A DNA stretch of 64,000 bases from Escherichia coli (GTDB taxonomy: Bacteria; Pseudomonadota; Gammaproteobacteria; Enterobacterales; Enterobacteriaceae), in NCBI RefSeq assembly GCF_024223415.1, contig NZ_CP100500.1. One strand, 5' to 3'. Both the position numbers and the translations under genes were made by a program. Shown here piece by piece: positions 8,254 through 25,560 of this stretch (position 1 is its first letter; every line of letters starts with the position of its first letter). The notes beneath the pieces were generated by a model. The model saw nothing but the letters and a program-made list of their open reading frames with translations. It made no database searches and was not told the origin of the DNA.

Positions 8254-8298
8254 ATAAACGGTTAGTAAAAAACGGAAGAATTATTTTCTTCTTAATAT

Positions 8299-9080: not shown

Positions 9081-9261
9081 ATGCTTTGCGCAAATACAGG
9101 TTGGCTATATGAAGATAAGAATCTCCATGTTGTGCAATGAGGCAGGCAGTTTTATACGATGCCTTATGTTTCAGGAAAGTCATAACATAATCTCCTGCGA
9201 ATAAAGGTTGCAACAATCCCCGGCGATAAAACCGTAATAAACATTCAGGGAATATTTATTG

Positions 9262-9627: not shown

Positions 9628-9755
9628 GGCTTCCTCAGCTGACTTATATGTTCTGCTATATAGCGAGTCTCAGAAGTGTTTTCATATTGAGACTGTTTCC
9701 GCAATGATTGATAAAAATGTTCGCATGTACCTTGAGGGGCGAAGCGGCGATTATG

Positions 9756-10304
9756 TCACCATTGGTATTGGTTCTTCCGTAGAAGAGCTTCGCGAGATAA
9801 GGAGCAAACTTGTTGAGATGCGTCATGGTGTTGCTGCTCCTCACTTTTTGGTTGCTCCGGAGGAGTAACCTCGCCAGTTAACAGCCACATCGGATCGCAG
9901 CCAAGAATATTTGCCAGTGGGGTAAGCATACTGATAGTTGGTTCATACTCTCCGCTCTCCCACTGGATGATGATTTCTTCATCGAGATCGAGCAGCCTGG
10001 CGAGTTCGGCGGTTGTTAAGCCGCAGGCTTCGCGTTGGGTGCGAAGGTTAACCAGCCAGCTTTTAGGGAAGGATTGTTTTTGTTGTGCAGGAGAAGCCGT
10101 AGATAGAGCATATTCATGGATAAATTCCATTACCTCAATGCCCAGTTCCTTTGAGCGAGCACAATCCAGAAGATGGAATGTGCGTACAGCACTTAGCAAA
10201 TTTGCAATATTTAATGCAAAGGAATCAAGTTCTAAGCCTTCAAGCGTAACACAGCCGCAGTTGATAAAATTAGTTGTTTCTGGAGTTGCTTTTAGTGTCT
10301 TCAT
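9756..10304 (-). CDS. protein with C-terminal XRE-type helix-turn-helix domain
   Basis: 182 aa; residues ~90-145 (LTTAELARLLDLDEEIIIQWESGEYEPTISMLTPLANILGCDPMWLL) look like an HTH_XRE domain; N-terminal ~85 aa unassigned. Confidence 0.5.
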   Translation of the reverse strand: MKTLKATPETTNFINCGCVTLEGLELDSFALNIANLLSAVRTFHLLDCARSKELGIEVMEFIHEYALSTASPAQQKQSFPKSWLVNLRTQREACGLTTAELARLLDLDEEIIIQWESGEYEPTISMLTPLANILGCDPMWLLTGEVTPPEQPKSEEQQHHDASQQVCSLSREALLRKNQYQW

Positions 10305-10357
10305 ATACCCACCAACAATTTTAAATTGAATTTAATCAAGTTATAATTGATGGTGCG

Positions 10358-10386
10358 ATATTATGCTTTGAGAAATAGGCTGTCAA
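10358..10386 (-). promoter_or_regulatory. strong sigma70-like promoter reading leftward (pL-like)
   Basis: Minus-strand TTGACA, 17-bp spacer, TAATAT, ~50 bp upstream of the HTH gene start; coordinates approximate. Confidence 0.45.
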
Positions 10387-10411
10387 GAAAAAATTGATAC
10401 CGTGTGTTTTA

Positions 10412-10436
10412 GGCAGAAAAAAACGGGCAAAGCCCG
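10412..10436 (-). terminator. hairpin plus T-run downstream of cI
   Basis: Minus strand reads aacgggctttgcccgttttttt just after the cI stop; coordinates approximate. Confidence 0.5.
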
Positions 10437-10449
10437 TTAAAATCAAAGA

Positions 10450-11145
10450 CTAACCAAATCTGTTTATATTGAATGGTACTGATGAGATCACTTTAGACTG
10501 GATATAAAGCAGAGCTAACCCCTCTTTTTCGATGCTCCATGGTTGATAATTGGGGTTATCAGATAACACCATGATTTTGCTTCCAATTTTTTGAAGTCTT
10601 TTCACGTAGCATTCTCCATCAAAACAAAATGCATAAATGCCATCGCCATCAAAATAAGTTACTGTCTTATCAAGAAAAAGAAGGTCGCCAGGTGAGATTG
10701 TGGGAGCCATACTGTCTCCTCTGGCGTTACCTATTTCTATATTTTTGAATGCCCGATTTCCAACAAGGCGTCGGGCATATTCAGGATCAAGTTCTATTGA
10801 GCGCACTACATCTATCAAGTCACCACGGACATGAGTTCCATCACCGCAACTAAACTCAACATCAAGGACATTAAACACGACGCTATCTGTTCTTGTCTGG
10901 TGTTTCTCTTGCGAGGAAAAGGTTGGTGAGGAGTCTTCACCTAAGAACCAGGATTGTGGATAACCGCTAATCTCGGATAAATGCGCGAGCTTATCACTCC
11001 GTGGAAATGTTTTTCCTGTTGTCCAGTACTGCACTGATTGCGCACTCACACCTAACTTGCGGGCCAGTTGAGCCTGAGTCCATCCTTTTGCTTTCAGCAT
11101 CGCGGCTATTCGATTTTCCGTGTTTTTGACGTTCTTCATGACCAA
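10450..11145 (-). CDS. cI: CI-like repressor (HTH plus S24 LexA-type autopeptidase domain)
   Basis: 231 aa; N-terminal HTH (KGWTQAQLARKLGVSAQSVQYW), C-terminal S24 peptidase motifs (GDSMAPT...KRL); divergent from cro. Confidence 0.88.
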   Translation of the reverse strand: MVMKNVKNTENRIAAMLKAKGWTQAQLARKLGVSAQSVQYWTTGKTFPRSDKLAHLSEISGYPQSWFLGEDSSPTFSSQEKHQTRTDSVVFNVLDVEFSCGDGTHVRGDLIDVVRSIELDPEYARRLVGNRAFKNIEIGNARGDSMAPTISPGDLLFLDKTVTYFDGDGIYAFCFDGECYVKRLQKIGSKIMVLSDNPNYQPWSIEKEGLALLYIQSKVISSVPFNINRFG

Positions 11146-11272
11146 ATCCTGTGGGTTTCTTTACAAGGATAAATCTTTACTTGATTTTAGTGTATTCGAT
11201 CCTTTTGCAACTTGCATGTTAATTTAAACTTGATGTATTCTTGATTCATAAAGTTAATGTTGGTGCTTTGTT
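11146..11272. promoter_or_regulatory. immunity-region operator/promoter (OR, pRM/pR-like)
   Basis: Divergent cI-cro intergenic region with repeated acttgat-type half-site motifs; the same motif (aatcaagtt) recurs near the leftward promoter at ~10340. Confidence 0.55.
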
Positions 11273-11572
11273 ATGAAAGGAAATGATTACGATAAACTTC
11301 GTGCATTAATTGCGCAAAATGCCATAGCGCGAAATCTTGGTGTGACGCCGCAAGCGGTGAATCAGTGGTTTTCAAAAAACACAATTCCTGCTCGTTTCGT
11401 TTTACGCGTATGTGAAGTAGTTGCATGGAAGGTCACGCCACATGGCTTAAGGCCAGATCTTTATCCTCACCCTGAAGATGGAATTCCTGATTCGTTACGC
11501 AAAATTTCAAATCCAAGCTTAGCGCGCACGGAAGATGGGCAGAGTGATTCATCAGAAATGTCCACGCGATGA
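11273..11572 (+). CDS. cro: Cro-like HTH regulator
   Basis: 99 aa with HTH (IARNLGVTPQAVNQWF), first gene rightward of the operator region. Confidence 0.7.
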   Translation: MKGNDYDKLRALIAQNAIARNLGVTPQAVNQWFSKNTIPARFVLRVCEVVAWKVTPHGLRPDLYPHPEDGIPDSLRKISNPSLARTEDGQSDSSEMSTR

Positions 11573-11648
11573 ACGGTTACTGAACGAAAAAAGAAAAGCC
11601 GGGCCGCACTCCATCAGCCCGACTTATTCTGATTAGTAAGGGGATTTC

Positions 11649-12494
11649 ATGATGATCAATAAACAAAAATTAGTCAACCCTGAAAACCTGCCAGTTATTG
11701 CTGGTGTAGAAATTTCAACTGATATGGTTGGGCGCTTTAATCTGAATGCATTGCATCGAGCCAGCGGTCTTGGCCCCAATAAAGCTCCGACGCAGTGGTT
11801 GCGTACTCAGTCAGCTAAACAACTTATTGAAGAGCTGGAAAAAGAAACTATGCAGAATTGCATAGTTTCACTGGAAGGGCGGAATGGCGGTACTTTTGCG
11901 CACGAACTGCTTGCTGTTGAATATGCAGGATGGATTTCTCCTGCGTTCCGGTTGCAGGTGAACCAGACTTTTATTGACTATCGTACTGGCAAACTTACAG
12001 CGGGCAATAATCAGTTGCCCAATTTTGACGATCCGATCGCTGCTGCTGAAGCGTGGATTGAAGCCAAAAAATCCGAACGCCTTGCTCTCGGGTATGCAGA
12101 GCGTCAGGCTCGCTACATCAGCAAACTCGAAAGCCATCTCGCCGATGGCATCACTCCTGTGCAGTTCTGCAAACAGCTCAACGGTGTAAACACTCGTCAG
12201 ATTAATGCGTTCCTTGAAGAGCGTAACTGGCTGTATGACGACCGTCCGGAGGCTATGTATCCGCGCTGGCGTGTAAAAGCGTATGCACGTGACCAATACC
12301 TGACTGAGCGTTCTGGGCAGGTTGAGCAGGAAAACGGGGAAATGCGCGAGATTTTCAAACCACTCCTGAAGAAAAAAGGTGCCGCCTGGTTATATCGCCA
12401 TTATCTGAACGGCGAACTACCGATGAAGAAAACATGGGATGGGCTGTTTACCCATAACACTGAGCTCGCGAATCTTTTACAGGAGAGCAAATGA
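11649..12494 (+). CDS. KilA-N domain antirepressor-like protein
   Basis: 281 aa; N-terminal KilA-N-like and C-terminal antirepressor-like regions. Confidence 0.65.
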   Translation: MMINKQKLVNPENLPVIAGVEISTDMVGRFNLNALHRASGLGPNKAPTQWLRTQSAKQLIEELEKETMQNCIVSLEGRNGGTFAHELLAVEYAGWISPAFRLQVNQTFIDYRTGKLTAGNNQLPNFDDPIAAAEAWIEAKKSERLALGYAERQARYISKLESHLADGITPVQFCKQLNGVNTRQINAFLEERNWLYDDRPEAMYPRWRVKAYARDQYLTERSGQVEQENGEMREIFKPLLKKKGAAWLYRHYLNGELPMKKTWDGLFTHNTELANLLQESK

Positions 12495-12703
12495 TGCAAA
12501 CCAAGACATGTGTAACTGGTGATGTCGATCTGAAACCTTGCCCGTTCTGCGGAAATCCGGAAGTACAACTCATTGAGGTGAAATATTTTCTGGATGGCGA
12601 TGATGGTTATTACGTCGCATGTACTTGCTGTAACGCAAACCAGATTCCTGATTCGAAAGAACGTGCTGTTCATGACTGGAACCAGCGCGAAAACGCGGAT
12701 TGA
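12491..12703 (+). CDS. lar: Lar-family restriction alleviation protein
   Basis: 70 aa Cys-rich protein with CPFCG...C.CC motif. Confidence 0.7.
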   Translation: MMQTKTCVTGDVDLKPCPFCGNPEVQLIEVKYFLDGDDGYYVACTCCNANQIPDSKERAVHDWNQRENAD

Positions 12704-13380
12704 CGGCGAGTAGGTACAAAATGATCCGCAACCAACATATTGATTCTGCAATTTCGGGACGTTACACTGTTCCAGCACCTTATAAAGCGGGTGCCGGGAT
12801 TGGAACCCCGGAATTGCATACGGCGATATACGACGCGCCAGCGTCTTTTTTATCGTCCGCGCTCACGCACGCCAGAATTATGGTGGGCTGGGCAGGGGAG
12901 CCGAAAGGCTCGCCGGTTTCCGTATGCGCCGGTAGTTCCAACCCTGTCCAGTTCACCACCAGTGAGATTGGAACCTCCGGTGGTGGAAGTTATCCATTGC
13001 ATACGGAGGCTGCCATCATGGCTACAGTCCCAACTTCCCCATACCTGAAAATCGAAGTCGTCAACGGCAAGGCCGTTATTTTCTCCCTGCATGTTGCCTG
13101 CCATTTCAAGCGCATGCACCAGAACATCGTCGACAAAATCGAGTATCTGAACTGCTCGCGCGAATTTTTTACCCGCAATTTCATACCGGGTACTTATCAC
13201 ATCTATGGTGACTCCCTGCGTGGTTATTACATCACCCTTGATGGTCTGATGATGCTTCAGCTTGGGTTAAGTCTACGCACAATGCGGTACTACGAGAGCT
13301 GCATTGAAGCATTCCAGGAGGCAGGGAACAGCCTGAATCTTACCGCTTTCCGCCGTAATCAGTGGGAGGCGCGTCCATGA
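12700..13380 (+). CDS. hypothetical protein (start uncertain; possibly internal Met at ~13018)
   Basis: ORF 12700..13380; the first ~100 codons are low-complexity and may be non-coding. Confidence 0.35.
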   Translation: MTASRYKMIRNQHIDSAISGRYTVPAPYKAGAGIGTPELHTAIYDAPASFLSSALTHARIMVGWAGEPKGSPVSVCAGSSNPVQFTTSEIGTSGGGSYPLHTEAAIMATVPTSPYLKIEVVNGKAVIFSLHVACHFKRMHQNIVDKIEYLNCSREFFTRNFIPGTYHIYGDSLRGYYITLDGLMMLQLGLSLRTMRYYESCIEAFQEAGNSLNLTAFRRNQWEARP

Positions 13381-13571
13381 TTAGTTACGAAATTATTATT
13401 TCCACAACTGAATACAGAAACGATGTATCAGTTAGCACGGATGTATCTGTCTGGCACCGTCGCTATAAATCCAGAAAAACGGCAGAACTGAAAGCGGCAG
13501 AGATGTGTGAAACCATCTCAATGAAAGGTAGCCCGGTTAAATACGTAACTACGGCGGAGGTGCGTCCATGA
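13377..13571 (+). CDS. hypothetical small phage protein
   Basis: ORF 13362..13571, start taken at internal Met (MISYEII...) with ATGA overlap to upstream gene. Confidence 0.35.
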   Translation: MISYEIIISTTEYRNDVSVSTDVSVWHRRYKSRKTAELKAAEMCETISMKGSPVKYVTTAEVRP

Positions 13572-13792
13572 TCCGCCACATCGTTAATTTCCGGTATCAC
13601 CGATACAACCATTGCCCCCGTGTGGGGCAGTGGTTCACCACCAGCAACGGCCACGTTCTGCGGGTTTGCCTGGTCAATACAGAAAGCCAGAAGGTTGTCT
13701 GCCAGGTTCAGGGACGTACTCATACCCTGAGTTATCCACTGGCAGTGTTTCAGTCCGGAAAAATGTTTAAACGCCTGGGAGGTGCCGTGTGA
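13568..13792 (+). CDS. hypothetical small phage protein
   Basis: 74 aa, translationally coupled in the early-right operon. Confidence 0.4.
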   Translation: MIRHIVNFRYHRYNHCPRVGQWFTTSNGHVLRVCLVNTESQKVVCQVQGRTHTLSYPLAVFQSGKMFKRLGGAV

Positions 13793-14781
13793 GTCGTTAC
13801 GCACCTACACCGGAAGTTATGGCTATTGGTCAAATTAATATTTCCGGCAATGTCACCCCCGCGAACTGGTGGAAACATATTCGGCTACCCAGTGGTCGTC
13901 CGGATGCGACTGCTATCGCCTTGCTTTCAGAAATTGTTTACTGGTACCGCCCGACAGAACTCCGGGATGAGCATACCGGGGCTTTGCTGGGATATCGCAA
14001 GCGTTTTCAGGGTGACAAACTGCAAAGAAGCTATCAGGCGTTTGCTGAGCAATTTGGCTTCGGGAAAAGGGAAACCGCAGATGCGCTGAAGCGTCTTCGC
14101 GATGCAGGGTTTATTACTCTGGATTTACGCACCGTAGAAATGCTCGATGGTGTGAAATGCAGCAATATTTTGTTTGTCGGGATCAACCCACAGGCAGTTG
14201 CTGCCATTACCACACCTTCTTCTGTTTCGCCAGAAAGTAACAGCAATAACGCAATCAGCGACACAGCTATTACGTTAAAACGGAACACCCCCCAACGTCA
14301 TAACGGAACAGGGGATACGCCGAATGTTGATACAAATACAGAGATTACTACAGAGATTACAACGGAGACTAAAAACACTATTGGCGCATCCGCTGACGCG
14401 TCTGCACCAGCGCGTTCCGCCCGACAGGAATATTCACCGGAATTTGAACAGGTCTGGCAGGAATATCCCAAACGTGCTGGTGGCAATTCCAAGTCAGCAG
14501 CCTTCAAAGCCTGGAAAGCCCGTCTCAGGGAGGGAATAAAACCGGAGACCATGCTTGATGGTGTGAGACGTTATGCCGCCTGGGTACGTGCTACAGGAAA
14601 TACCGGCACACAGTTCGTGAAGCAGGCGTCGACGTTCTTTGGCCCCGATCGGCACTTTGACGAATCCTGGCAACAGCCAGCCGCTCCCGGAGGTGGGCGA
14701 CAGCGACAGGTCGATGTCCTGGCTGGCCTGGGAGCCATGTCTGACAAATTCGGTAAATCCAGTGACAAATTGACATTCTGA
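13789..14781 (+). CDS. replication initiation protein (replisome organizer, lambda O-like)
   Basis: 330 aa; N-terminal replisome-organizer-like region; internal TEITTEITTE encoded by direct nucleotide repeats (possible iterons). Confidence 0.7.
   Translation: MSRYAPTPEVMAIGQINISGNVTPANWWKHIRLPSGRPDATAIALLSEIVYWYRPTELRDEHTGALLGYRKRFQGDKLQRSYQAFAEQFGFGKRETADALKRLRDAGFITLDLRTVEMLDGVKCSNILFVGINPQAVAAITTPSSVSPESNSNNAISDTAITLKRNTPQRHNGTGDTPNVDTNTEITTEITTETKNTIGASADASAPARSARQEYSPEFEQVWQEYPKRAGGNSKSAAFKAWKARLREGIKPETMLDGVRRYAAWVRATGNTGTQFVKQASTFFGPDRHFDESWQQPAAPGGGRQRQVDVLAGLGAMSDKFGKSSDKLTF
14335..14380. repeat. iteron-like direct repeats inside the replication initiator gene (candidate ori)
   Basis: acagagattac repeated in tandem; lambdoid origins lie within the O gene; coordinates approximate. 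Confidence 0.35.
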
Positions 14782-14782
14782 G

Positions 14783-15670
14783 GTGACAGCGATGATGACA
14801 CTTAACCTGCGTGAACAACAAACAAGACTACAGGCGCGGATGGATGAGTTACGGGCAGAGATTGCATTTGCTCAGAATGGCGAAAAGCCATGGCCTTATC
14901 GATCCTGCTGGATGCGTGAAGGGCGCGGGTGTTGCGAAAAACATGGCGAATACCACACACATATTCTGGTGTGGAGCGATCGTAATGGCGAGGATAGAGA
15001 AAAAATTTCATGCTGCCCTGACTGCTTGATAGCTGAGGCCAACGATTTGACCATGGAGCTGTCGTCCCTCAAGGCGGAAGAACTGACTGATAACGCCGGA
15101 ATTGCTCTGCGTTTTCGGGACTGCGAGTTTGATAATTATCTGGAGGTTAATCCTGACGCAGCCAGAAATCTTGCGGCCTGTCGCCGCTATGCGGAGAACT
15201 GGCCAGATATGCTGGAGAACGGTACCAGTCTTGTTATGACCGGCAGTTGCGGTACCGGGAAAAATCATCTGGCGGTATCAATGGCAAAACACATCATCCG
15301 TAACTATCTGGCCAGTGTGGAGATCACCGACGTGATGCGCCTTACCCGTGCTGTGAAAAACTGCTGGCGGAATGACAGTGAAAAAACAGCGGATGACGTC
15401 ATTGAGCATTATGCGTCACTGGATTTGCTGATCATCGACGAAGTCGGCGTTCAGTTTGGCAGTGCGGCTAAAATGGCCATTTTGCAGGAAATTATCAATG
15501 CCCGGTATGAGGGTATTTTGCCAACTATCTTGATCAGCAACCTTTCACCGGAAGAATTGTGGGCGTTCATCAGTCCCCGGATTGCCGACAGGATCACCGA
15601 TGGCGGGCGCAACTGGTTGTCGTTTAACTGGCCCAGCTACCGTTCTCGTATCGGAGGTGTTGCCGCATGA
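14783..15670 (+). CDS. DnaC-like helicase loader (IstB-type AAA+ ATPase)
   Basis: 295 aa; Walker A GSCGTGKNHLA and Walker B LLIIDEVG. Confidence 0.85.
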   Translation: MTAMMTLNLREQQTRLQARMDELRAEIAFAQNGEKPWPYRSCWMREGRGCCEKHGEYHTHILVWSDRNGEDREKISCCPDCLIAEANDLTMELSSLKAEELTDNAGIALRFRDCEFDNYLEVNPDAARNLAACRRYAENWPDMLENGTSLVMTGSCGTGKNHLAVSMAKHIIRNYLASVEITDVMRLTRAVKNCWRNDSEKTADDVIEHYASLDLLIIDEVGVQFGSAAKMAILQEIINARYEGILPTILISNLSPEELWAFISPRIADRITDGGRNWLSFNWPSYRSRIGGVAA

Positions 15671-17067
15671 CCAGCCAGAACACCCCGGCATGGCGTAACG
15701 ATGACCTGGAAGGTGCGGTGATTGGCGCGTTTTTTCTGCGTGGGGCAGATCCGGAAGTGATGGATATTCTGGCCACGCTTCCGGCGGATGTATTTTTCGT
15801 GCGTCAGTACCGGGATATTTACGCGGGGATTTGCAGACAGGCCCGCGTATCCGGCGTCATTGACCCCGTGCTGCTGTGCAATGAGATGCCGGAACTTGCC
15901 CCGGTGATTACCGACACCGGGCGCAAAACCTGGGTGAAGTCTTCACTGGAACACTATGTTGCAGCGCTGCGGCGAAATGCCGTACTGCGCGATGCAGAAA
16001 AAACACTGACCGAAGCATTACAGAATTTACGGGATGCACATACCTGCGAAGCAGCCGAGGATGCCCTGAAGGATGCGCAGAACATGATGGCCTCACTGTC
16101 GACCGGAAAGGGCGTCATTCAGCCGGTTCACATTGATGATGTCCTTCCGGAAGTGGTGGGCCGTGTTGAATGCCGGAATCAGGGACTGGAGAAATCCAGA
16201 ACGCTGATGACCGGTATTGATGAACTGGACGCAAAAACAGGGGGTATGGAGCCAGGCGACCTGGTATTCATTGCGGCTCGTCCTTCGATGGGGAAAACCG
16301 AACTGGCGCTGGACATCATCGACAAGGTGACTGAGCAGGGGCATGGCGTGCTTCTGTTCACCATGGAGATGGCGAACATCCAGATTGGTGAACGTATGGT
16401 GTCTTCTGCCGGTGGAATGCCGGTATCCCGTCTTAAGTCTGCTGCCCGTTTTGAAGACGAAGACTGGGCACGTTTCTCACAGGGTGTGGGACGAATGACG
16501 GGGCGTAATATCTGGATGGTGGACCAGGCAAATCTGACCATTGATGAGATATGTGCAACCACGAGGTACCACCGGATGAAGCATCCGGAAACGGCGCTGG
16601 TGGTGGTTGATTACCTCGGTCTGATTAAAACCCGCAGCACGGGGCGTCACGACCTTGCTGTGGGGGAAATCTCAAAGGGACTTAAAAGTCTGGCAAAATC
16701 CGGCGGTTTCCCGCTGATTGCACTGAGTCAGCTCTCCCGTGGTGTGGAATCCAGACCCAATAAACGCCCCATGAACTCGGATCTGAAAAATTCCGGGGAA
16801 ATAGAGGCGGATGCCGACATCATTCTGATGCTTTACAGGGATGAGGTGTATAACCCGGATACACAGGCCAGAGGCATAGCAGAAATCAACATCACGAAAC
16901 AGCGTAATGGCACTCTCGGGACCATTTACCGGCGTTTTCATAACGGGCATTTTCTGCCTGTGGATCAGGAAAGCGCTCAGGTTCTTTCCACACCCATGAC
17001 GCCGGGCAATCCGCGCAGATACAGCAATAACCGCATGTCGGGCAGTAAAGCGGAGCGTTTATTTTGA
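15667..17067 (+). CDS. DnaB-family replicative DNA helicase
   Basis: 466 aa; RecA-like C-terminal domain with Walker A (ARPSMGKTE) and DnaB-like motifs. Confidence 0.88.
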   Translation: MTSQNTPAWRNDDLEGAVIGAFFLRGADPEVMDILATLPADVFFVRQYRDIYAGICRQARVSGVIDPVLLCNEMPELAPVITDTGRKTWVKSSLEHYVAALRRNAVLRDAEKTLTEALQNLRDAHTCEAAEDALKDAQNMMASLSTGKGVIQPVHIDDVLPEVVGRVECRNQGLEKSRTLMTGIDELDAKTGGMEPGDLVFIAARPSMGKTELALDIIDKVTEQGHGVLLFTMEMANIQIGERMVSSAGGMPVSRLKSAARFEDEDWARFSQGVGRMTGRNIWMVDQANLTIDEICATTRYHRMKHPETALVVVDYLGLIKTRSTGRHDLAVGEISKGLKSLAKSGGFPLIALSQLSRGVESRPNKRPMNSDLKNSGEIEADADIILMLYRDEVYNPDTQARGIAEINITKQRNGTLGTIYRRFHNGHFLPVDQESAQVLSTPMTPGNPRRYSNNRMSGSKAERLF

Positions 17068-17321
17068 ATAACAGAACAGCCACTGTTTCACCGGAACAAC
17101 TTCGTCGCCAGGCGCAGGAGATGCTTCGTTGTGCTGAACAGATGGAAAAAATGAGCGTGGCAAAGGATACGCTCCGCAAGCAGCTTACTCCGGCGCTTCG
17201 TGATCTGCTGCAGGCAAAACACCGCACACAAAAGGCGGTGGATGAGCTGGTGGATTGCGTGGCGGAACTGGAAGGCAAGGTAAGCCAGTTTGAAACTCTG
17301 GTGAAGGAGTTTACTGCGTGA
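17064..17321 (+). CDS. hypothetical protein (coiled-coil)
   Basis: 85 aa, coupled to the helicase gene. Confidence 0.4.
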   Translation: MNNRTATVSPEQLRRQAQEMLRCAEQMEKMSVAKDTLRKQLTPALRDLLQAKHRTQKAVDELVDCVAELEGKVSQFETLVKEFTA

Positions 17322-17366
17322 TGGCTGAATTTTTTCTCCTGTGTTCATGCAATATCGTTCGCTGAG

Positions 17367-18362
17367 GTGACCGTGAGAGCACTACTGACCCCTGAAATTG
17401 CCCCGCGTATGGGGATCGTATTGTTCAGGCCAGGTTCAGAGCTGATGCCCCTGTTTATGCAGGGGCGTGTCCTGCTGGAGCCTGAGCCGGAACGTTATTC
17501 ATCTTTCGCCAGTGGTGCCGTTCCGGCGGCATCACAACCGCTGGCGGATGATCCTGCCGTACGGGCCGTGTTCCGCAATGAGGCAGTAATCCGTCGTGCT
17601 GGTGGCGTGGAATGTCTTGAAAGCTGGTTACTTCGTGAAAAAGGCTGCCAGTGGCCTCATTCCGACTGGCACAGCGAGAACATGACCACAATGCGACACG
17701 CTCCGGGTGCAATCCGTCTGTGCTGGCACTGCGATAACCAGCTGTGCGATCAGTTCACGGAACGGCTGGAATCAATGGCAACGGATAACTGTGCTCGCTG
17801 GGTGTTGTCTGTCGTGCGTCGGGATCTCGGTTTTGATGATAGTCATGTTGTGACAATGCCGGAACTGTGCTGGTGGCTGGTTCGTAATGACCTGGCGGAT
17901 ACCTTACCGGAAAGTGCAGCCCGTAAGGCACTGAGATTACCGAATCCTGTTGTGCCGTCTGTCACCCGGGAGAGTGACCTTGTTCCTTCGGTTCCTGCCA
18001 CCAGCATTATCCAGGATAAAGCGAAAAAGGTGCTGGCGCTGAAAGTGGATCCGGAGTCGCCGGAGTCTTTTATGTTACGCCCAAAACGTCGCCGCTGGGT
18101 TAATGAAAAGTACACGCGCTGGGTTAAGACACAGCCGTGTGCATGTTGTGGAAAGCCTGCTGATGATCCCCACCACCTGATAGGTCACGGTCAGGGGGGA
18201 ATGGGTACAAAAGCGCATGACCTCTTTGTGTTGCCTTTGTGCAGAAAGCATCACGACGAGCTGCATGCGGATACCGTGGCATTTGAAGTGAAGTATGGCT
18301 CCCAGCTGGAGCTGATATTTCGTTTTATCGATCGTGCGCTGGCAACTGGTGTGCTGGCCTGA
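17367..18362 (+). CDS. DUF968-like protein with C-terminal HNH-type Cys/His motif
   Basis: 331 aa; C-terminus CACCGK...HHLIGHG...CRKHHDELH resembles an HNH nuclease finger. Confidence 0.55.
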
Positions 18363-18364
18363 TT

Positions 18365-18802
18365 TTGTGGAGAAAGTTGATGCGTGATATTCAAATGGTT
18401 CTTGAACGTTGGGGGGCATGGGTCGCAAATAATCATGAAGACGTGGAATGGTCAGGCATTGCCGCCGGATTTAAGGGGCTGATACCGTCAAAAGTAAAAT
18501 CGCGATCGCAGTGTTCCGATGATGACGCGATGATTATATGTGGTTGTATGGCTCGCCTGAAAAAGAACAACGCCGATATGCATGACATGCTGGTTGATTA
18601 CTACGTATATGGGATGACGTTCATGAAGTTAGCAATGAAACATGGATGTTCGGATACGCATATTGGAAAGCGTTTGCAAAAAGCTGAAGGAGTGGTTGAT
18701 GGTATGTTGATGATGCTAGATGTTCGCCTTGAGATGGATCGATATGTGAGCACAAATTATTCGATACGTCGTAAAACTGCGTCCTCCAGGGCAGGGATAT
18801 AA
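18365..18802 (+). CDS. late gene antiterminator Q
   Basis: 145 aa; resembles the Q family of E. coli cryptic prophages ([14 protein letters not shown]...). Confidence 0.75.
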
Positions 18803-18805
18803 GGC

Positions 18806-18838
18806 GTACAAAATAAAAAATGGGCGCAAAGCGCCCAA
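18806..18838. terminator. hairpin with flanking A/T runs
   Basis: gggcgcaaagcgccc stem; on the minus strand it is followed by a T-run, downstream of the porin pseudogene; coordinates approximate. Confidence 0.45.
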
Positions 18839-18980
18839 GTATAAAAACCAAAAAGGTTAATAAATAACAGAAAGTTCGTTGGAAAAGTTAAGTACTGTCC
18901 AACGTTTTGCAGTGGCATGAGGGCACCACTTTATATGCCAGAAAAGTTCTCACTCCCCCGGCATATTCTTACAGAATAAA

Positions 18981-20087
18981 TCAGAACTGATAAACCAGAC
19001 CAACAGCGACAATATCGTCGGTTGATACTCCTGTTCTTTCAGTGAATTTATTTTTATCGAGCATATTGATTTTGTAATCTATGTATGTAGACATATTTTT
19101 GTTGAAGTAATAAGAAGCCCCTACTTCAACGAATTTTTCAATATATCCGTCATCATGTTTTTTACTAATATCAGTACTGGATGAAAGGTTTTTTGCTTTA
19201 GAGTGGGTATAAGCAAGAGACGGGCGTAATCCAAAGTCGAACTGGTATTGTGCCACAACAGTGAAATCTTCGGTTTTATTCGCCACTCCTGAAATATTAT
19301 CACCATACGATATTGCACGGGTATTATTTGTTTCACCATAACTGGCAGCCAGGTACAGATTATTTGCGTCATATTTTACCCCGGTGGCCCACTGTTCAGC
19401 TTTTTTCCCTTTACCAAGCTCAGCCTTTTTCTGATTTTTAGTACGATCAGCAGCGCCGTATGCTGCGACAAAACCAAATCCTTCATATTCATAGCTGACA
19501 GAGCCACCTACACCCTCTCCGTTTGAAGTATCTGGTTTATCCTTGCGTTCATTTTTTCCCAGATACTGAATTGCAAAGCTAAGCCCATCGACCAGTCCAA
19601 AAAAGTCAGTGTTGCGGTATGTGGCAACACCGCCTACACGACCAACGAAGAAGTTATCCTTTTGCGCTGCGGTAGGTCCAAACTCCGGGAAGACGTCAGT
19701 GTAGCTTAATGCGTCGTACACCACGCCGTAGTTACGACCATAATCAAGAGAGCCAGCATCTGCAAGCTTCAGACCAGCGTATGCCAGGCGAGTCTTGTTT
19801 CCAGTTTGAGCTCCATCCCCTTCAGGGTTGTTCCCCTGGAAATTATATTCCCACTGACCAAAACCAGTAATATAATTATTTATTTGGGTTTCACCTCTGA
19901 ATCCAAGGCGTGCGTAAGTCTGATCTCCGTTTTGGTCCTTATCAGAAGAAAAATAATGTAAACCAACTGCTTTACCGTATAAATCCACTTTGTTTGCATC
20001 TTTATTGTATATTTATGCTGCATTTGAAGACGTTGCCAGAAATACTGATGCTGCTACAGCAGAAAGTGCCACTGTTAAATTTTTCAT
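18981..20087 (-). pseudogene. OmpC/OmpF/NmpC-family porin gene interrupted by an in-frame TAA at codon 25
   Basis: Hand translation from the ATG at ~20087 gives signal peptide MKNLTVALSAVAASVFLATSSNAA, then TAA (20013..20015) where porins have Glu of AEIYNKD, then [15 protein letters not shown]... continuing as ORF 18981..19988. Confidence 0.75.
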
Positions 20088-20685
20088 TTTTTATCCTCTG
20101 GTGGGAGTTAATTGGACGACAAAATGCTATCAGGATGAAAATTTAATTTCTGTGTATAATGTATACAAGGAAAATTAAGGAGTCCGATTCTTTATATGTG
20201 ATCACTATCACAAAATAAGAAGTCATGCAAACTAATAAATAGATGGCTATCTTTCACTCAGAAAATTAAGATCAATCTTTTTTATTAGAAGTGCTAAATA
20301 TATTTAATTATTTGGGTTTATGAGTTATTTATATAACCTTAATAAAGACATTACTTTTGAAGAAAAATACGTGCATAGAAGAATGCATAATCTTTAATTG
20401 TATCTTGCCAAACGTCGCAACAATCCAGAGATTGTCTGTGGGGTGAATCATGCAGCATGCAGGGTATGAACAAACACTTTACGATCGTAAAAGTATGCAT
20501 ATCATGGTAAGAGTGGTTCCTACGCCACACAACTTAAACCCGCAGCCAGGCGGTTTTTTACATCGAAAATCTGCACCGGACATTAAGCTCTTTGGCGGAC
20601 CAGATAAGAGGTGCGCTTAGTTGGGTTTGTCGGGCTTTCTCTGAGATTTGCGGTATTAATCCCGTAACGTTATTATGCTGCTCGA

Positions 20686-20761
20686 GGCCCTTTAGCTCAG
20701 TGGTGAGAGCGAGCGACTCATAATCGCAAGGGCGCTGGTTCAAATTCAGCAAGGGCCACCA
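20686..20761 (+). tRNA. tRNA with CAU anticodon (Met, or Ile2 if lysidine-modified)
   Basis: Hand-folded cloverleaf: acceptor GGCCCTT/AAGGGCC, D-arm TAGCTCAGTGGTGAGAGC, anticodon loop CTCATAA, T-loop TTCAAAT, 3' CCA; coordinates approximate. Confidence 0.75.
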
Positions 20762-20762
20762 A

Positions 20763-20839
20763 CCGCTACTAGCTCATCAGGAAAGAGCGTCAACCCTTTA
20801 AGTTGAGTGCGCTAGGTTCGATTCCCCGCTGGCGGTCCA
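20763..20839 (+). tRNA. tRNA-like sequence, degenerate (possible tRNA or tRNA pseudogene)
   Basis: D-arm (GCTC...GAGC) and T-loop (GGTTCGATTCC) are tRNA-like and 3' ends in CCA, but T-stem has mismatches and anticodon loop CCTTTAA lacks U33. Confidence 0.35.
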
Positions 20840-20841
20840 GC

Positions 20842-20914
20842 GCCGACTTACCTCAGTCGGCAGAACAGTTTAGTTGTAACCATCAGGCCACCACTTCAAT
20901 TCCGGTAGTCGGCA
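20842..20914 (+). tRNA. tRNA-like sequence, degenerate
   Basis: 7-bp acceptor pairing GCCGACT/AGTCGGC and TTCAATT T-loop, but weak D and anticodon stems; no encoded CCA. Confidence 0.3.
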
Positions 20915-21254
20915 CTAAATTTCCAGGCTCGTGCTCACGGCCTGCTTCATATCCGCGCCAGGTCCGTCGCGATTAAACCACAGGGCTTTTCAGGAGGGGC
21001 CACAGAGAGCGTCACACTGACCATTCCCTGTGGCTTGTGCTGAGATCCGGTCAGTGAAATTGTGCAAAGGGAATCTTCGGGAGCTTTGGGCAGAATGTCA
21101 GTTATTGATGTTGACATCCTCCACACCCTGAAGGTCGGGGTTTTACGGCGCACTGGATAAAATACCTGAACAAACAGCCTCTTCGTGCGGCTTTTTTATA
21201 ACGAGATTCTGACTTGCTGCCGTCCGTAATGTCGGATGGCGGAGGTGAGGGACT

Positions 21255-22184: not shown

Positions 22185-22718
22185 ATGAACGCAAAAATCA
22201 GATACGGCCTGTCGGCTGCCGTTCTGGCGCTGATTGGTGCTGGCGCATCTGCTCCTCAGATACTTGATCAGTTTCTGGACGAAAAAGAGGGTAACCACAC
22301 AACGGCATACCGCGATGGGTCCGGCATCTGGACCATCTGTCGGGGTGCCACGATGGTGGATGGAAAACCCGTTTTTCCCGGAATGAAGCTGTCGAAGGAA
22401 AAATGCGACCAGGTTAACGCTATTGAACGTGATAAGGCACTGGCATGGGTGGAGCGCAATATTAAAGTACCTCTGACCGAACCACAGAAAGCGGGTATTG
22501 CGTCATTCTGTCCCTATAACATTGGCCCCGGTAAGTGTTTCCCGTCGACGTTTTATAAGCGGCTTAATGCCGGTGATCGAAAAGGCGCCTGCGAGGCGAT
22601 TCGCTGGTGGATAAAGGATGGTGGGCGCGATTGCCGCATACGTTCAAATAACTGCTATGGACAGGTTATTCGTCGTGACCAGGAAAGCGCATTAGCCTGT
22701 TGGGGGATAGATCAGTGA
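22185..22718 (+). CDS. SAR endolysin (T4-lysozyme-like, GH24)
   Basis: 177 aa; N-terminal signal-anchor-release helix ([15 protein letters not shown]), catalytic E..D..T triad context ([20 protein letters not shown]). Confidence 0.85.
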
Positions 22719-23182
22719 GCAGAGTCGCCGCGATTATTTATGCTCTGGTTATCTGCATCATCGTCTGCCTGTCGTGGGCGGTCAATCATTACCGTGATAA
22801 CGCCATCGCCTACAAAGAACAGCGAGATAAAAAAGTCAGTGAGCTGAAGCAGGCGACCGCCACCATTACTGACATGCAGCAACGCCAGCGTGCTGCTGAT
22901 GTACTCGATGCTAAATACACGAAGGAGTTAGCTGATGCGAAAGCTAAAAATGATGCTCTTCGGCGCAAGCTTGATAATGGTGGCAGGGTGCTCGTCAAAG
23001 GAAAATGCCCTGTGCCATCCTCAGCCGAAACCTCCAGCGCCTCCGGCATGGGCAATGATGCCACCGTCGAACTCTCTCCAGTTGCTGGACGAAACGTTCT
23101 CGGTGTCCGGGACGGAATTATCCGCGACCAAACAGCACTGAGAACGCTTCAGGAATACATCAGGACGCAATGCCTTCGATGA
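22700..23182 (+). CDS. i-spanin Rz
   Basis: 160 aa; N-terminal TM helix, coiled-coil periplasmic domain, overlaps endolysin 3' end. Confidence 0.75.
22935..23141 (+). CDS. o-spanin Rz1 (lipoprotein embedded in Rz in another frame)
   Basis: 68 aa; lipobox LIMVAGCSS, Pro-rich mature part; fully embedded in Rz. Confidence 0.7.
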
Positions 23183-23400
23183 TAGCGATAATTTTACTCA
23201 TCATCCTTCACATCTGGCTCTGTAGACAGGGTGGTGATCACTTCTGGAGTGAATCCAGATTAAACATCTCATTGCTGATTCTTGATATTGAGCATCTGGC
23301 GCGCGGTAAGGGGCTGCGTTGAGATAAGAGCCAGTCATCACAAACACCAGGATTTAGCCTCGCATTCGCGGGGCTTTTTATTGCAACAAAGGTAAAGACG

Positions 23401-23688
23401 ATGGATGAAGAATATCGTAAAAACCTGCAACTGTGGTTTGGTCTTACGCATGCGTCGTTCTGCGTGATGCCGCGAGTATTCATGGAGGCTATGCCACCAG
23501 AATGGCAAGAGAAGATGGCTCAGTTGCTTTTTGAGTATAGCGACACAATCAAAACGGATGTCTGCGGAGTTCACAGCTGTTTTGTTACTGCCAAAGACGG
23601 CAACAACCGCTTTATGAGGATGCCAGAAGATATTCTGAACTATCGTCATCCCCGACGTGAATTCATCGAATCATTTCTGAAGAAGTAG
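23401..23688 (+). CDS. hypothetical protein
   Basis: 95 aa ORF downstream of lysis cassette. Confidence 0.4.
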   Translation: MDEEYRKNLQLWFGLTHASFCVMPRVFMEAMPPEWQEKMAQLLFEYSDTIKTDVCGVHSCFVTAKDGNNRFMRMPEDILNYRHPRREFIESFLKK

Positions 23689-24309
23689 CCATTACAAAGC
23701 CTATCTACGGGTGGGCTTGATAATGAAACCAGAATTTATTCTGGGAAACCAGTTACGGCAGTACAGCGAAACAACCCAAGCCAGTAAGTGGGGAAATAAC
23801 ACTGGCAGCCACTGAAAGATGAACCTCCTGCCTTATGGCAAAAAAGATTCTTTGTGGTGGCGGACTGATGGAAAGACATCGGTTATTGCAGAGACCATTC
23901 AATGAGTGGTCTCGACAATGGCTTATACCCTACACGGGATAACTTAACTGATATCCCTTTTAACGGATAAAGGTATTCAAGCCTGACATATCATGCGCTG
24001 TATCGTCGCCGTATTCCCGTATTAACAGAGACCGTAGCCCGACGGGGAACTCCTTCTGCGCGAGTGTGCGGGAATAATCAAAAACGATGCACACCGGGTT
24101 TTTACCGCGTTTATGGTTCGCGGGTTTGTCCCTCATGCTCGCCAGTCCGGTGCGATGGTGGAAGAAACCGGAAGCTGTATTACAGAAAGTGCTACTACTG
24201 TATCCTGATGCGATGTATGTAATGTGAGTCAGATAATGGCACAGGATGTGGTGATGTGGCAGTCTGGAACACAGGATATATTGTCAGAATAAGACCCGTA
24301 GGAATAAAA

Positions 24310-24636
24310 ATGAAAAGACGCCTTTCACTACTTTTTCTGTTATCTGCCCTGGCAGTGGGATGCTCGCAGCAAAAAGCTGATGAGCCCCGGCAATTAGTGA
24401 CGGTGTATCCACGATATCCGGAATATGCTGCAGCAAATTATATCAAGGGGCTGGTTGAGGTTAAGTTCGATATTGGTGCTGACGGGACTGTGACACGGAT
24501 CGTTTTTCTCCGCTCAGAGCCTCATAATTTGTTTCGTGATGAAGTGGTGAAGGCCATGGCGAAATGGAGATTTGAAAAGAATAGTCCCCGTCAGGGAGTG
24601 AAGAGACAATTTATCTTTACGCCATCACGTCCCTGA
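24310..24636 (+). CDS. TonB C-terminal-domain-like lipoprotein
   Basis: Internal Met of ORF 24256..24636 gives MKRRLSLLFLLSALAVGCSQQK (lipobox), followed by a TonB-C-like region (YPRYPEYAAANYIKGLVEVKFDIGADGTV). Confidence 0.55.
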   Translation: MKRRLSLLFLLSALAVGCSQQKADEPRQLVTVYPRYPEYAAANYIKGLVEVKFDIGADGTVTRIVFLRSEPHNLFRDEVVKAMAKWRFEKNSPRQGVKRQFIFTPSRP

Positions 24637-25000
24637 TGCTTCCAGGTAGAGAGGGGCTGGAAGCAGGAGAAAAATGAAAGAGCCAGCGGTTATATTTTTG
24701 TCATGGCTGACGAGAAATGATGGAAGAAGGCGTTGTATGCCACACAACGCCTCACTGTTCATTTCTTCTTTTTCTCTGGTGTAACCCGATGAATAAGAGT
24801 TGCACTGGTTTCCGATGAGATGGCGATATGCTCGGGCAAAGTATGCTGGCAGTTTTCCAACTGGTCAAAAATACCTGCTCTCGTCTGTTGCAATGCCTGC
24901 AGCATGCGGCGGCAATGCGCCTTTGCTTTTGCTAACCATCTTTCCTTACTCTATCAGTCGCTGCGTGAACTCATCATGGAATACCAGGTAAATGCGGATG

Positions 25001-25252
25001 TTATCGGTTTTGGCTACGCAGCATAGTACAAAACGGACAGGTGCATCCCGGAATGGGGGAGGCGTCACATGTCCCTGTGATGGTTGTTCCGGGTAATGCA
25101 CTGTGTGGGGCATAAAAATGTCCGATAATTTTACTTTCTACCGCAGTTAGTTGATTCGTTGGTCCTGGTAGCACATTGGGCGAGGGTTTAAATGCCAGGC
25201 AACTGAAGGATGATGTTGCAAGGGAGATAGCGAGAATATTTCTGATTTTCAT
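25001..25252 (-). CDS. small secreted Cys-rich protein (hypothetical)
   Basis: ORF 25001..25318; likely start at MKIRNILAISLATSSFSCLA (signal peptide); start uncertain. Confidence 0.3.
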   Translation of the reverse strand: MKIRNILAISLATSSFSCLAFKPSPNVLPGPTNQLTAVESKIIGHFYAPHSALPGTTITGTCDASPIPGCTCPFCTMLRSQNR

Positions 25253-25399
25253 TTGATGATGCCTCTGTGTGAAATGACGGTAAACGACGCACTTGTGCCG
25301 GCACATAATAGCAAGCATCAGAATAGATCAGATTCGATTCTTGCTGTAAGTGATAATTATTCTCGTTTTTTTCGGGTCCTTTCCGGCGATCCAACAGGT

Positions 25400-25560
25400 T
25401 ACGGGGCGTCGACCTCGCGCGTTTTCGCTATTTATGAAAATTTTCCGGGATCCATGTCCGGTTTCTCTGCAAGTTAACTATATGAAAAATATAAAAACAT
25501 GCTTTCTGCGAACCGGACATGTGCAAAAAATGTACAAACAAACCGGACATATGCGTGCGT
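25400..25560. other. cos site: lambda-like cosN (gggcgtcgacct) plus cosB-like R repeats
   Basis: 25401-25446 matches my recollection of lambda cos (GGGCGGCGACCTCGCGGGTTTTCGCTATTTATGAAAATTTTCCGG) with few mismatches; downstream aaccggacat repeated three times (one inverted). Confidence 0.7.

What the first reader, a model, noticed from the sequence alone, without database searches (positions are those of the whole stretch)
24310..24636. TonB-C-like lipoprotein moron between the lysis cassette and cos
A small lipoprotein with a TonB C-terminal-like domain sits in a late-region slot that otherwise carries no essential function. A phage-encoded TonB-domain protein could interfere with TonB-dependent receptors, giving superinfection exclusion against TonB-dependent phages or colicins, or altering iron uptake.
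Basis: inference. Interest (0 to 1): 0.45.

Follow-up and report, generated by a model that had tools for sequence, protein, structure and literature searches.

The report
Prophage outer-membrane lipoprotein with TonB domain
A small gene carried by about 30% of complete E. coli genomes, on lambda-like prophages, encodes a lipoprotein that is a tethered copy of the receptor-binding end of TonB, the protein that powers iron import; it most likely jams that machinery to keep out certain phages and toxins, but nobody has tested this.

Summary
Window 24310-24636 (+) encodes a 108-aa protein with a lipoprotein signal peptide (LAVG|C18, Ser at +2). Its TonB C-terminal domain matches Pfam at 3e-13, is 40% identical to E. 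coli TonB 151-230, and the AF2 model lies 0.8-0.9 Å from receptor-bound TonB.

It sits 768 nt upstream of a cosN-like site, inside a ~1.2-kb insertion absent from phage 2B8. A complete Rz/Rz1 spanin pair lies upstream, so the PHROG label "Rz-like spanin" is positional.

The gene is not a TonB remnant: dN/dS is ~0.12 between two alleles. It occurs in 1615 of 5426 complete E. coli genomes and in phage 21, always in the lysis-to-terminase slot.

It belongs to a clade of ~110-aa TonB-domain lipoproteins on phages, a plasmid and Enterobacterales chromosomes. Nine of 12 non-E. coli lineages carry a Fur box at the promoter. This allele does not.

Function is untested; I found no study. My best guess (0.4) is an outer-membrane-tethered decoy that occupies TonB boxes and blunts TonB-dependent phages and colicins. 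My one docking test was uninformative.

The gene is already annotated; the architecture and family context are new. A covarying RNA-like block lies just upstream.

The parts
24310..24636 (+). CDS of the 108-aa TonB_C lipoprotein (stop codon included)
   Evidence: dN/dS 0.11-0.13 between the two E. coli alleles
24310..24363 (+). Signal peptide with lipobox (aa 1-18, LAVG|C); Ser at +2 predicts outer-membrane sorting
   Evidence: Read from the sequence. Cys18 is invariant in clade alignment A2. The sorting prediction follows the established +2 rule.
24364..24390 (+). Short flexible tether (aa 19-27, SQQKADEPR)
   Evidence: Low pLDDT and no secondary structure in the AF2 model
24391..24618 (+). 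TonB C-terminal domain (aa 28-103): strand 28-30, helix 38-42, strands 47-55 and 61-70, helix 76-83, strand 94-103 (beta3 equivalent)
24300..24303 (+). Shine-Dalgarno AGGA, 6 nt before the ATG
   Evidence: Read from the sequence
24282..24290 (+). TGTCAGAAT, an extended -10-like motif. The second E. coli allele has TGTTAGAAT at the same place. Distant relatives have TGnTAGTAT-type motifs there, followed immediately by a Fur box. Candidate own promoter (inferred).
   Evidence: missed by the consensus scan, which requires a -35
24182..25372 (+). ~1.2-kb insertion relative to phage 2B8 that carries the gene; shared at 96% with phage 21
23987..24197 (+). Conserved ~210-nt block with a covarying secondary structure, immediately upstream. 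It is present in many lambdoid phages with or without the TonB_C gene. The 46-aa ORF at 24087-24227 inside it is probably not coding, because variants carry frame-breaking indels.
   Evidence: no Rfam match
23356..23375 (+). Intrinsic-terminator-like hairpin after the spanin genes. In a lysogen it would insulate the gene from upstream transcription; Q-modified polymerase should read through it (inferred).
22700..23182 (+). i-spanin Rz, with the embedded o-spanin Rz1 at 22935-23141. The spanin function is already covered.
25404..25415 (+). cosN-like site GGGCGTCGACCT, with lambda-like flanks

Best explanation
The gene encodes an outer-membrane lipoprotein whose only domain is a TonB C-terminal domain on a tether of about 9 residues.

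Shown:
- the domain identity and the fold;
- the lipobox;
- purifying selection;
- a fixed position in the dispensable lysis-to-terminase slot of many unrelated late regions;
- membership of a clade whose other members mostly carry Fur boxes.

[quoted passage not shown] It binds exposed TonB boxes by the same beta-strand addition that TonB uses. These could be the transporters' own TonB boxes or those of incoming colicins.

The protein has no transmembrane anchor to ExbB/ExbD and no proline-rich spacer, so it cannot deliver energy. It would therefore act as a competitive, non-productive occupant. The expected effect is reduced TonB-dependent entry of phages such as T1 and phi80, of colicins B, D, Ia and M, and of siderophore-microcins, at some cost to iron and B12 uptake.

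Expression (inferred): the gene is transcribed with the late operon, since it is on the same strand with no terminator of its own. It probably also has a weak promoter of its own, the conserved extended -10. The ancestral iron (Fur) control has been lost in this allele.
For: Domain and fold:
- establish the TonB_C domain.
- The model lies 0.8-0.9 Å from TonB domains crystallised on BtuB and FhuA.
- The YP motif, F180, G186, F202, W213 and F230 equivalents and the beta3 edge strand are kept.

Not a TonB: scores are 46-67 bits against equivalog cutoffs of 265-448. The N-terminus is a lipoprotein signal peptide, not a membrane anchor.

Functional gene:
- dN/dS is about 0.12.
- 1611 of 1615 genomes carry copies covering at least 80% of the gene.

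Constant slot despite mosaic flanks:
- lysozyme 33-98% identical, Rz 38-65% and Nu1 34-100% across 80 loci.
- Relatives at 33-46% identity occupy the same slot in three other phage types.

Tie to iron and TonB physiology: a 7-1-7 Fur motif with 3 or fewer mismatches lies within 65 nt of the start codon in 9 of 12 non-E. coli lineages. The background is 9 of 157 upstream regions of other ORFs in the same loci.

Precedent:
- overexpressed periplasmic TonB inhibits TBDT iron import, and a TonB-box pentapeptide reduced TonB-mediated colicin killing and phi80 infection (PMC9841981).
Against: No experiment on this protein was found.

TonB residues implicated in receptor contact are replaced: R158 to T, Q160 to Y, R166 to Y. 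The assignment of those residues rests on my knowledge of the 2006 BtuB and FhuA complexes and of suppressor genetics.

An AF2 single-chain fusion carried a wild-type BtuB TonB box and an L8P/V10P control. It docked neither peptide (pLDDT about 40). No positive control could be run, so this weighs little.

Inducing an inhibitor of iron uptake during iron starvation, as the Fur boxes of relatives imply, is paradoxical unless defence is the selected benefit.

This allele has no Fur box (best match 7 of 14 mismatches) and no consensus promoter. Expression in lysogens is therefore unproven.

PADLOC has no match.
Confidence: 0.4

Rival explanations
1. The protein is an auxiliary, positive factor of TonB-dependent uptake. 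For example, it could dock or concentrate TonB, or hold transporters ready at the outer membrane. It would be co-induced with iron-uptake genes, and phages would carry it to improve lysogen fitness in iron-poor niches.
For: Fur boxes overlap the promoters of most relatives. These include chromosomal copies in Raoultella, Enterobacter, Serratia grimesii and Erwinia at ordinary housekeeping loci. This pattern is typical of uptake genes rather than inhibitors. TonB C-terminal domains can dimerise (the 1u07 entry holds two chains).
Against: The protein cannot transduce energy because it has no link to ExbBD. I know of no precedent for an outer-membrane partner of this kind. Overexpressed periplasmic TonB domain inhibits rather than helps. 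The E. coli prophage alleles have lost or degraded the Fur box.
Confidence: 0.2
2. The domain is used for a different ligand, such as peptidoglycan, another envelope protein or a host factor. The product would then be a lysogenic-conversion envelope protein in the manner of Bor or Lom (for example serum resistance or envelope stability), unrelated to TonB boxes.
For: In phage 21 it sits in the same slot as bor. TonB-type domains can bind non-TonB-box ligands, as in the FusB C-terminal domain with ferredoxin (9hi3). The receptor-contact residues of TonB are not conserved. The clade has its own invariant surface signature.
Against: The Fur association of relatives points to iron physiology. Sequence and fold are closest to enterobacterial TonB itself rather than to specialised paralogues.
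Confidence: 0.12
3. The protein is a lysis accessory or spanin-like protein, as its PHROG family label ('Rz-like spanin') says.
For: phrog_1267 matches at 2e-40 over the full length. The protein is a lipoprotein encoded downstream of the lysis genes and transcribed late.
Against: A complete Rz/Rz1 pair is present about 1.1 kb upstream. Relatives also follow complete spanin sets. The mature part is a globular 90-residue domain, not a short proline-rich peptide. Chromosomal and plasmid relatives have no lysis genes nearby. PHROG gives the same label to an 81-aa ORF that overlaps the non-coding block, so the label follows position.
Confidence: 0.04
4. The gene is an inert fragment of a captured tonB gene, as older annotations imply ('partial tonB-like membrane protein', 'TonB fragment').
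For: These annotations appear. Only the C-terminal domain is present.
Against: dN/dS is about 0.12 at saturating dS. The lipobox is acquired and invariant. Length is conserved across 33-96% identity. The protein is closer to a separate lipoprotein clade (E 1e-22 to 1e-17) than to TonB proper (E about 1e-10).
Confidence: 0.02

Closest known systems
E. coli TonB C-terminal domain (residues ~150-239; PDB 1u07, 1xx3, 2gsk, 2grx)
   Same: Same Pfam domain and same fold (rmsd 0.8-1.5 Å). Identity is 40%. The YP motif, the aromatic core and the beta3 edge strand are kept, and the domain carries a basic net charge.
   Different: There is no N-terminal membrane anchor and no proline-rich spacer, so there is no link to ExbB/ExbD. 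The N-terminus is a lipoprotein signal instead. R158, Q160 and R166 are replaced, and the chain ends 5 residues after beta3.
Periplasmic TonB fragments made artificially (Howard et al. 2001, J Bacteriol 183:5885)
   Same: A TonB receptor-binding domain uncoupled from the energy source, located in the periplasm. It is reported to inhibit TBDT iron import (as cited in PMC9841981). Functionally this is what the phage protein would be.
   Different: Those are laboratory constructs of TonB itself and are soluble. This is a natural, diverged, lipid-anchored protein. I could not read the original paper.
Phage T5 Llp and prophage Cor superinfection-exclusion lipoproteins
   Same: Small phage-encoded proteins that inactivate a TonB-dependent transporter (FhuA). 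[quoted passage not shown]
   Different: The fold is different. The preprint reports many BFVD hits for the Llp fold, whereas this model has none at E<=0.001. Llp and Cor are specific for FhuA and act allosterically. A TonB-domain decoy would act on the TonB box common to all such transporters.
Lambda Bor / plasmid Iss
   Same: A small outer-membrane lipoprotein encoded in the same Rz-to-cos slot. It is dispensable for phage growth and counts as a lysogenic-conversion gene. Phage 21 carries both.
   Different: The sequence is unrelated. bor is on the opposite strand with its own promoter. The Bor function (serum resistance) has experimental support.
Specialised TonB paralogues (FusB, HasB, TonB2)
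   Same: A TonB_C domain diverged for a particular partner.
   Different: These retain the membrane anchor and work with ExbBD-type motors. The lipoprotein clade does not.

Membership tests
TonB_C domain (Pfam PF03544 / TIGR01352) | Profile score above the family threshold | tested here: met
   PF03544 E=3.2e-13; TIGR01352 48.6 bits against a cutoff of 27.1
TonB_C domain (Pfam PF03544 / TIGR01352) | TonB C-terminal-domain fold with a C-terminal beta3 strand | tested here: met
   AF2 block-mean pLDDT 97-98 across residues 31-100; Foldseek top 11 hits (E<=7e-6) are TonB or FusB C-terminal domains; TM 0.91-0.93 to receptor-bound TonB
TonB_C domain (Pfam PF03544 / TIGR01352) | YP motif and conserved aromatic core | tested here: met
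   Y36-P37, F53, G59, F75, W86, F88 (Y in TonB) and F103 align to Y163-P164, F180, G186, F202, W213, Y215 and F230
TonB energy transducer (NCBIfam PRK10819 equivalogs) | Whole-protein score above the equivalog cutoff | tested here: not met
   46-67 bits against cutoffs of 265-448
TonB energy transducer (NCBIfam PRK10819 equivalogs) | N-terminal uncleaved membrane anchor that couples to ExbB/ExbD, and a proline-rich spacer | tested here: not met
   The N-terminus is an 18-residue lipoprotein signal. Only about 9 residues lie between Cys18 and the domain.
Bacterial lipoprotein (signal peptidase II substrate) | Basic n-region, hydrophobic core and a lipobox ending in Cys | tested here: met
   MKRR-LSLLFLLSA-LAVG-C18; the Cys is invariant in 11 clade members. 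Lipidation itself cannot be tested here.
Bacterial lipoprotein (signal peptidase II substrate) | Outer-membrane sorting (no Asp at +2) | tested here: met
   Ser19 at +2. Relatives have S, T or A. This is a rule-based prediction only.
o-spanin (PHROG 1267 label 'Rz-like spanin') | Gene embedded in, overlapping or directly following the i-spanin gene, as the only outer-membrane partner | tested here: not met
   Rz1 (phrog_3198) is embedded in Rz (phrog_13) at 22935-23141. The TonB_C gene starts 1128 nt after Rz ends.
o-spanin (PHROG 1267 label 'Rz-like spanin') | Short, proline-rich, largely unstructured mature peptide | tested here: not met
   The 90-residue mature protein folds into a confident globular domain
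Moron (extra gene unit in a phage genome) | Present as an insertion between sequences that are adjacent in related phages | tested here: met
   Window 24182-25372 is absent from phage 2B8, where the flanks are about 80 nt apart
Moron (extra gene unit in a phage genome) | Own promoter | tested here: inconclusive
   No consensus sigma-70 site. A conserved extended -10-like TGTCAGAAT lies at 24282-24290, homologous to Fur-box-overlapped promoters of relatives.
Moron (extra gene unit in a phage genome) | Own terminator | tested here: not met
   No terminator-like site on the + strand between 24636 and 25108
Fur regulon | Fur box at the promoter | tested here: not met
   This allele: best 7-1-7 match has 7 mismatches, and the best 19-mer match has 9. 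Met in 9 of 12 non-E. coli lineages with 0-3 mismatches.
Llp/Cor-type superinfection-exclusion lipoproteins | Llp-like fold | tested here: not met
   No BFVD hit at E<=0.001 for this model, although the Llp fold is reported to hit many BFVD proteins. This is an indirect test.
Known anti-phage defence proteins (PADLOC) | Match to a PADLOC model | tested here: not met
   0 families

The most novel reading that the evidence does not exclude
Small outer-membrane-tethered TonB domains form a widespread, previously unrecognised class of mobile 'TonB-box decoys'. They would be ancestrally switched on by iron starvation through Fur. They would give broad tolerance to everything that parasitises TonB-dependent transporters: T1/phi80-type phages, group B colicins and siderophore-microcins. 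Lambdoid phages would have fixed them in the lysis-to-terminase slot. On this reading about 30% of sequenced E. coli, including ST131, UTI89, APEC and STEC lineages, carry such a shield.
Probability: 0.3. Interest if true: 0.7.

Novelty: new variant of a known kind. Interest (0 to 1): 0.45.

Why it matters
If the decoy reading is right, one 108-residue prophage protein would modulate all TonB-dependent traffic at once. That would bear on several things:
- phage therapy and phage host-range prediction;
- colicin and microcin ecology in the gut;
- 'Trojan-horse' siderophore antibiotics such as cefiderocol-type conjugates, whose uptake depends on the same TonB-box interaction.

It would also be a natural version of an inhibitor strategy now pursued chemically, blocking the TonB/TonB-box contact (PMC9841981). 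The gene is present in about 30% of complete E. coli genomes, so a phenotype would be epidemiologically relevant.

If instead it aids iron uptake, it would be a new accessory component of a very well-studied system. Either way the experiment is cheap and the outcome is informative.

Tried and rejected
**Literature.** Ten full-text searches were run. They combined TonB with prophage, lipoprotein, superinfection exclusion, moron or phage 21, and also tried 'TonB family protein' and TonB_C with Fur. None found a study of this gene. The key precedent paper (PMC99666) is not held.

**Fur box in the window.** There is no match at 3 or fewer mismatches anywhere in the 64 kb. The best upstream match is poor.

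**Consensus promoter scan.** It found nothing on the + strand upstream of the gene.

**AF2 single-chain fusion.** The construct was BtuB L8P/V10P TonB box, linker, mature domain, linker, wild-type TonB box. The domain folded, but neither peptide docked (pLDDT 35-43).

**Spanin reading.** Rejected.

**AsxR/AgvB anti-sRNA identity for the upstream block.** Rejected. Those RNAs lie 3' of pR' and are in Rfam, and Rfam found nothing here.

**The 46-aa ORF at 24087-24227 as a co-transcribed partner protein.** Rejected, because its reading frame is broken by indels between variants.

**Genome-contig scan.** It returned only 7 loci because the peptide pattern was narrow. The taxonomic spread of the clade is therefore under-sampled.

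**BFVD fold search.** No significant viral structural relatives.

**PADLOC.** No hit.

Full report
**What is there.** Window 24310-24636 (+) is a 108-codon ORF preceded by AGGA. Its product starts MKRRLSLLFLLSALAVGC, a basic n-region, a hydrophobic core and a lipobox. Ser follows the Cys, which by the +2 rule predicts Lol-dependent sorting to the outer membrane.

Residues 28-103 are a TonB C-terminal domain:
- Pfam PF03544 at 3.2e-13.
- TIGR01352 at 48.6 bits against a cutoff of 27.1.
- phmmer against PDB sequences finds E. coli TonB C-terminal domains at about 2e-14.
- Identity to TonB 151-230 is 32 of 80 residues.
- An AlphaFold2 model built on 25 homologues has mean pLDDT 87, with block means of 97-98 across residues 31-100. 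Its secondary-structure order is that of TonB.
- Foldseek against the PDB returns TonB or FusB C-terminal domains as its 11 best hits. These include the domains crystallised on BtuB (2gsk_B, rmsd 0.9 Å) and FhuA (2grx_C, rmsd 0.8 Å).

**Where it is.** The window is an E. coli prophage integrated next to yfhL/shoB. The queried stretch is 100% identical to strain B771. It has a lambda-like late region:
- endolysin at 22185-22718;
- Rz at 22700-23182 with embedded Rz1 at 22935-23141 (phrog_13 and phrog_3198);
- the TonB_C gene;
- a cosN-like GGGCGTCGACCT at 25404 with lambda-like flanks;
- Nu1 and A terminase genes.

Compared with phage 2B8, window 24182-25372 is a ~1.2-kb insertion between a conserved upstream block and the cos-proximal sequence. 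Phage 21 shares the whole insertion at 96%.

**It is not a TonB, not a spanin, and not a dead fragment.**
- It misses the TonB equivalog cutoffs by a wide margin. It has neither a membrane anchor nor a proline-rich spacer.
- Its PHROG family (phrog_1267, 2e-40) is labelled 'Rz-like spanin'. However, a complete spanin pair is already present, and the mature protein is a globular domain.
- Relatives also follow complete spanin sets. PHROG gives the same label to an ORF that overlaps non-coding sequence nearby. The label therefore reflects position.
- Older annotations call it a partial TonB or a TonB fragment. Yet the two E. coli alleles (70% amino-acid identity) differ with dN/dS of about 0.12 at dS of about 1.5, and the lipobox Cys is invariant.

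**Distribution.**
- The gene is found in 1615 of 5426 complete E. coli genomes, with up to four copies. These include UTI89, ST131, APEC BEN2908 and O103/O145 STEC.
- It is also in phage 21, ev017, Perceval, several ECOR prophages and Stx1a phages.
- In 80 IMG/VR loci it always lies downstream of lysozyme and Rz and upstream of terminase, although those flanking genes are of several unrelated types.
- Relatives at 33-46% identity occupy the same slot in an HK97-type phage, in a Klebsiella prophage, and in a prophage with a glycoside-hydrolase-19 endolysin and GpA terminase.
- Others sit on a plasmid next to Qat defence genes.
- Still others are at ordinary chromosomal loci in Raoultella, Enterobacter, Serratia grimesii (next to dsbB-nhaB) and Erwinia.
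- All are lipoproteins of about 110-135 aa. In an exhaustive HMMER search they are much closer to the query (E 1e-22 to 1e-17) than TonB proper is (about 1e-10).

**A link to iron.** The relative in L003 has a perfect 7-1-7 Fur motif (TGATAATTATTATCA) 29 nt upstream of its start codon, immediately after an extended -10.
- Across 12 non-E. coli lineages, six have 0-1 mismatches and three have 2-3 mismatches, all within 65 nt of the start codon.
- The background is 9 of 157 upstream regions of other ORFs in the same loci with 3 or fewer mismatches.
- The family is therefore very probably Fur-controlled.
- The E. coli prophage alleles keep the extended -10-like motif (TGTCAGAAT at 24282-24290; TGTTAGAAT in the other allele) but not the Fur box. 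This allele's best match has 7 of 14 mismatches.

**How it most likely works.** The shown facts are an outer-membrane-type lipoprotein signal, a short tether, a TonB receptor-binding fold with an intact beta3 edge strand, and no coupling to the ExbBD motor.

Established knowledge supplies the rest. TonB engages transporters by pairing beta3 with their TonB box. Overexpressed periplasmic TonB inhibits TBDT iron import, and a TonB-box pentapeptide reduced TonB-mediated colicin killing and phi80 infection (as cited in PMC9841981). [quoted passage not shown]

The inference is a tethered, non-productive occupant of TonB boxes that blunts TonB-dependent phages, colicins and microcins. Ancestral iron-starvation control fits a defence that is switched on when the receptors are derepressed and when iron-regulated bacteriocins are deployed. 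It fits an uptake helper equally well, which is my main rival.

Weaknesses:
- R158, Q160 and R166 of TonB are not conserved.
- My fusion-docking test failed to dock a TonB box, and it had no positive control.
- Expression in lysogens is unproven. There is no consensus promoter, no terminator, and the gene lies in the sense orientation within the late operon.

**Novelty.** The gene's existence and its domain are already annotated. PGAP calls it 'TonB family protein', and the phage 21 record calls it 'TonB C-terminal domain protein'. New here:
- the lipoprotein-only architecture treated as a distinct clade;
- the fixed slot across deep divergence;
- purifying selection;
- the Fur association;
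- rejection of the spanin and fragment labels.

No functional study was found in the searchable library.

**Side observation.** Immediately upstream (23987-24197) lies a ~210-nt block that is more conserved between the two alleles than the gene itself.
- Frame-breaking indels rule out the 46-aa ORF drawn there.
- It occurs in 433 phage records, including 933W-type Stx phages, SPN3UB and partly lambda. It is present with or without the TonB_C gene and always lies just before terminase or cos.
- It has a consensus structure of 43 pairs. On 37 distinct sequences, 97.8% of cells are paired against 34-60% for slid controls.
- Eleven pairs show double changes against 1-7 in slid controls, and 0 of 500 shuffles reach the observed values. 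Many one-sided changes give G-U pairs that fit only the + strand.
- Rfam has no match.
- The alignment was fitted to the model, and most double changes come from a few divergent sequences. I call this a candidate only.

Noticed in passing
window 23987-24197 (+): A ~210-nt block just upstream of the gene with a covarying secondary structure. It has 43 pairs, 97.8% of cells paired against 34-60% for slid controls, and 11 pairs with double changes. It has no Rfam match. It is found in 433 phage records (933W-type, Stx1a, SPN3UB, 2B8, partly lambda), always shortly before terminase or cos. It is a candidate undescribed structured RNA of the lambdoid late transcript. The 46-aa ORF at 24087-24227 inside it is probably spurious.
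   Followed up: partly
L003 327-341; L102, L098/L099, L100, L101, L105, L110 (about 29-65 nt upstream of the start codons): Near-perfect Fur boxes (7-1-7 motif, 0-2 mismatches) overlap the promoters of distant relatives of the gene, both on phages and on chromosomes. They are absent from the window allele.
   Followed up: yes
L012 about 2955-2978 (second E. coli allele, Stx1a/O103 phages): A perfect 8-1-8 palindrome, AGAATAAG-A-CTTATTCT, overlaps the extended -10-like TGTTAGAAT in front of the 70%-identity allele. It could be an operator for an unknown regulator, a degenerate Fur site, or a 5'-UTR hairpin.
   Followed up: no
PHROG families phrog_1267 and phrog_6954; L096 1493-1738: PHROG labels the TonB_C lipoprotein family 'Rz-like spanin'. 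It gives the same label to an 81-aa ORF drawn over the RNA-like block. Both look like annotations inherited from position next to lysis genes, and they propagate into phage records (for example VT2phi_272).
   Followed up: yes
plasmid hits H145-H169: The 5' half of the upstream block (window about 23999-24093) is 86.5% identical to a sequence on more than 500 conjugative E. coli and Salmonella plasmids, many from poultry. I suspect this is the lambda-derived flank of the iss (bor-like) gene on ColV-type plasmids, but I did not check.
   Followed up: no
window 47876-49285 (+), 45042-46847 (+), 49346-49801 (+): Beyond the tail genes the prophage carries three notable ORFs. One is a 469-aa protein with a YadA-type trimeric autotransporter anchor (Eib-like?). 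One is a 601-aa collagen-repeat tail-fibre-like protein. One is a 151-aa ORF with weak sigma-70/ECF region-4 similarity.
   Followed up: partly
window about 4500-21000 (L002 1337-17569): The early region of this prophage is not lambda-like. It encodes a DNA polymerase, a DEAD-box helicase, DUF2800/DUF2815 proteins and a DUF5906 primase-like protein, joined to a lambda-type late region. It is integrated next to yfhL/shoB.
   Followed up: no
L107 4001-4390 and flanks: A 129-aa relative of the lipoprotein lies on a ParM/StbA-type plasmid, directly upstream of a KAP NTPase and QatB (Qat anti-phage system). This neighbourhood would suit a defence role.
   Followed up: no
window 24464-24437 (-): The best sigma-70-like site of the region (TTAACC, 16 nt, TATAAT with upstream TG; 10 of 12 matches) lies inside the TonB_C gene on the opposite strand. 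It could be chance or an antisense promoter.
   Followed up: no
window 23401-23688 (+): A 95-aa ORF matches only the C-terminal 40% of phrog_3527 (positions 139-230 of 233). It is probably a truncated remnant left by recombination in this variable slot.
   Followed up: no
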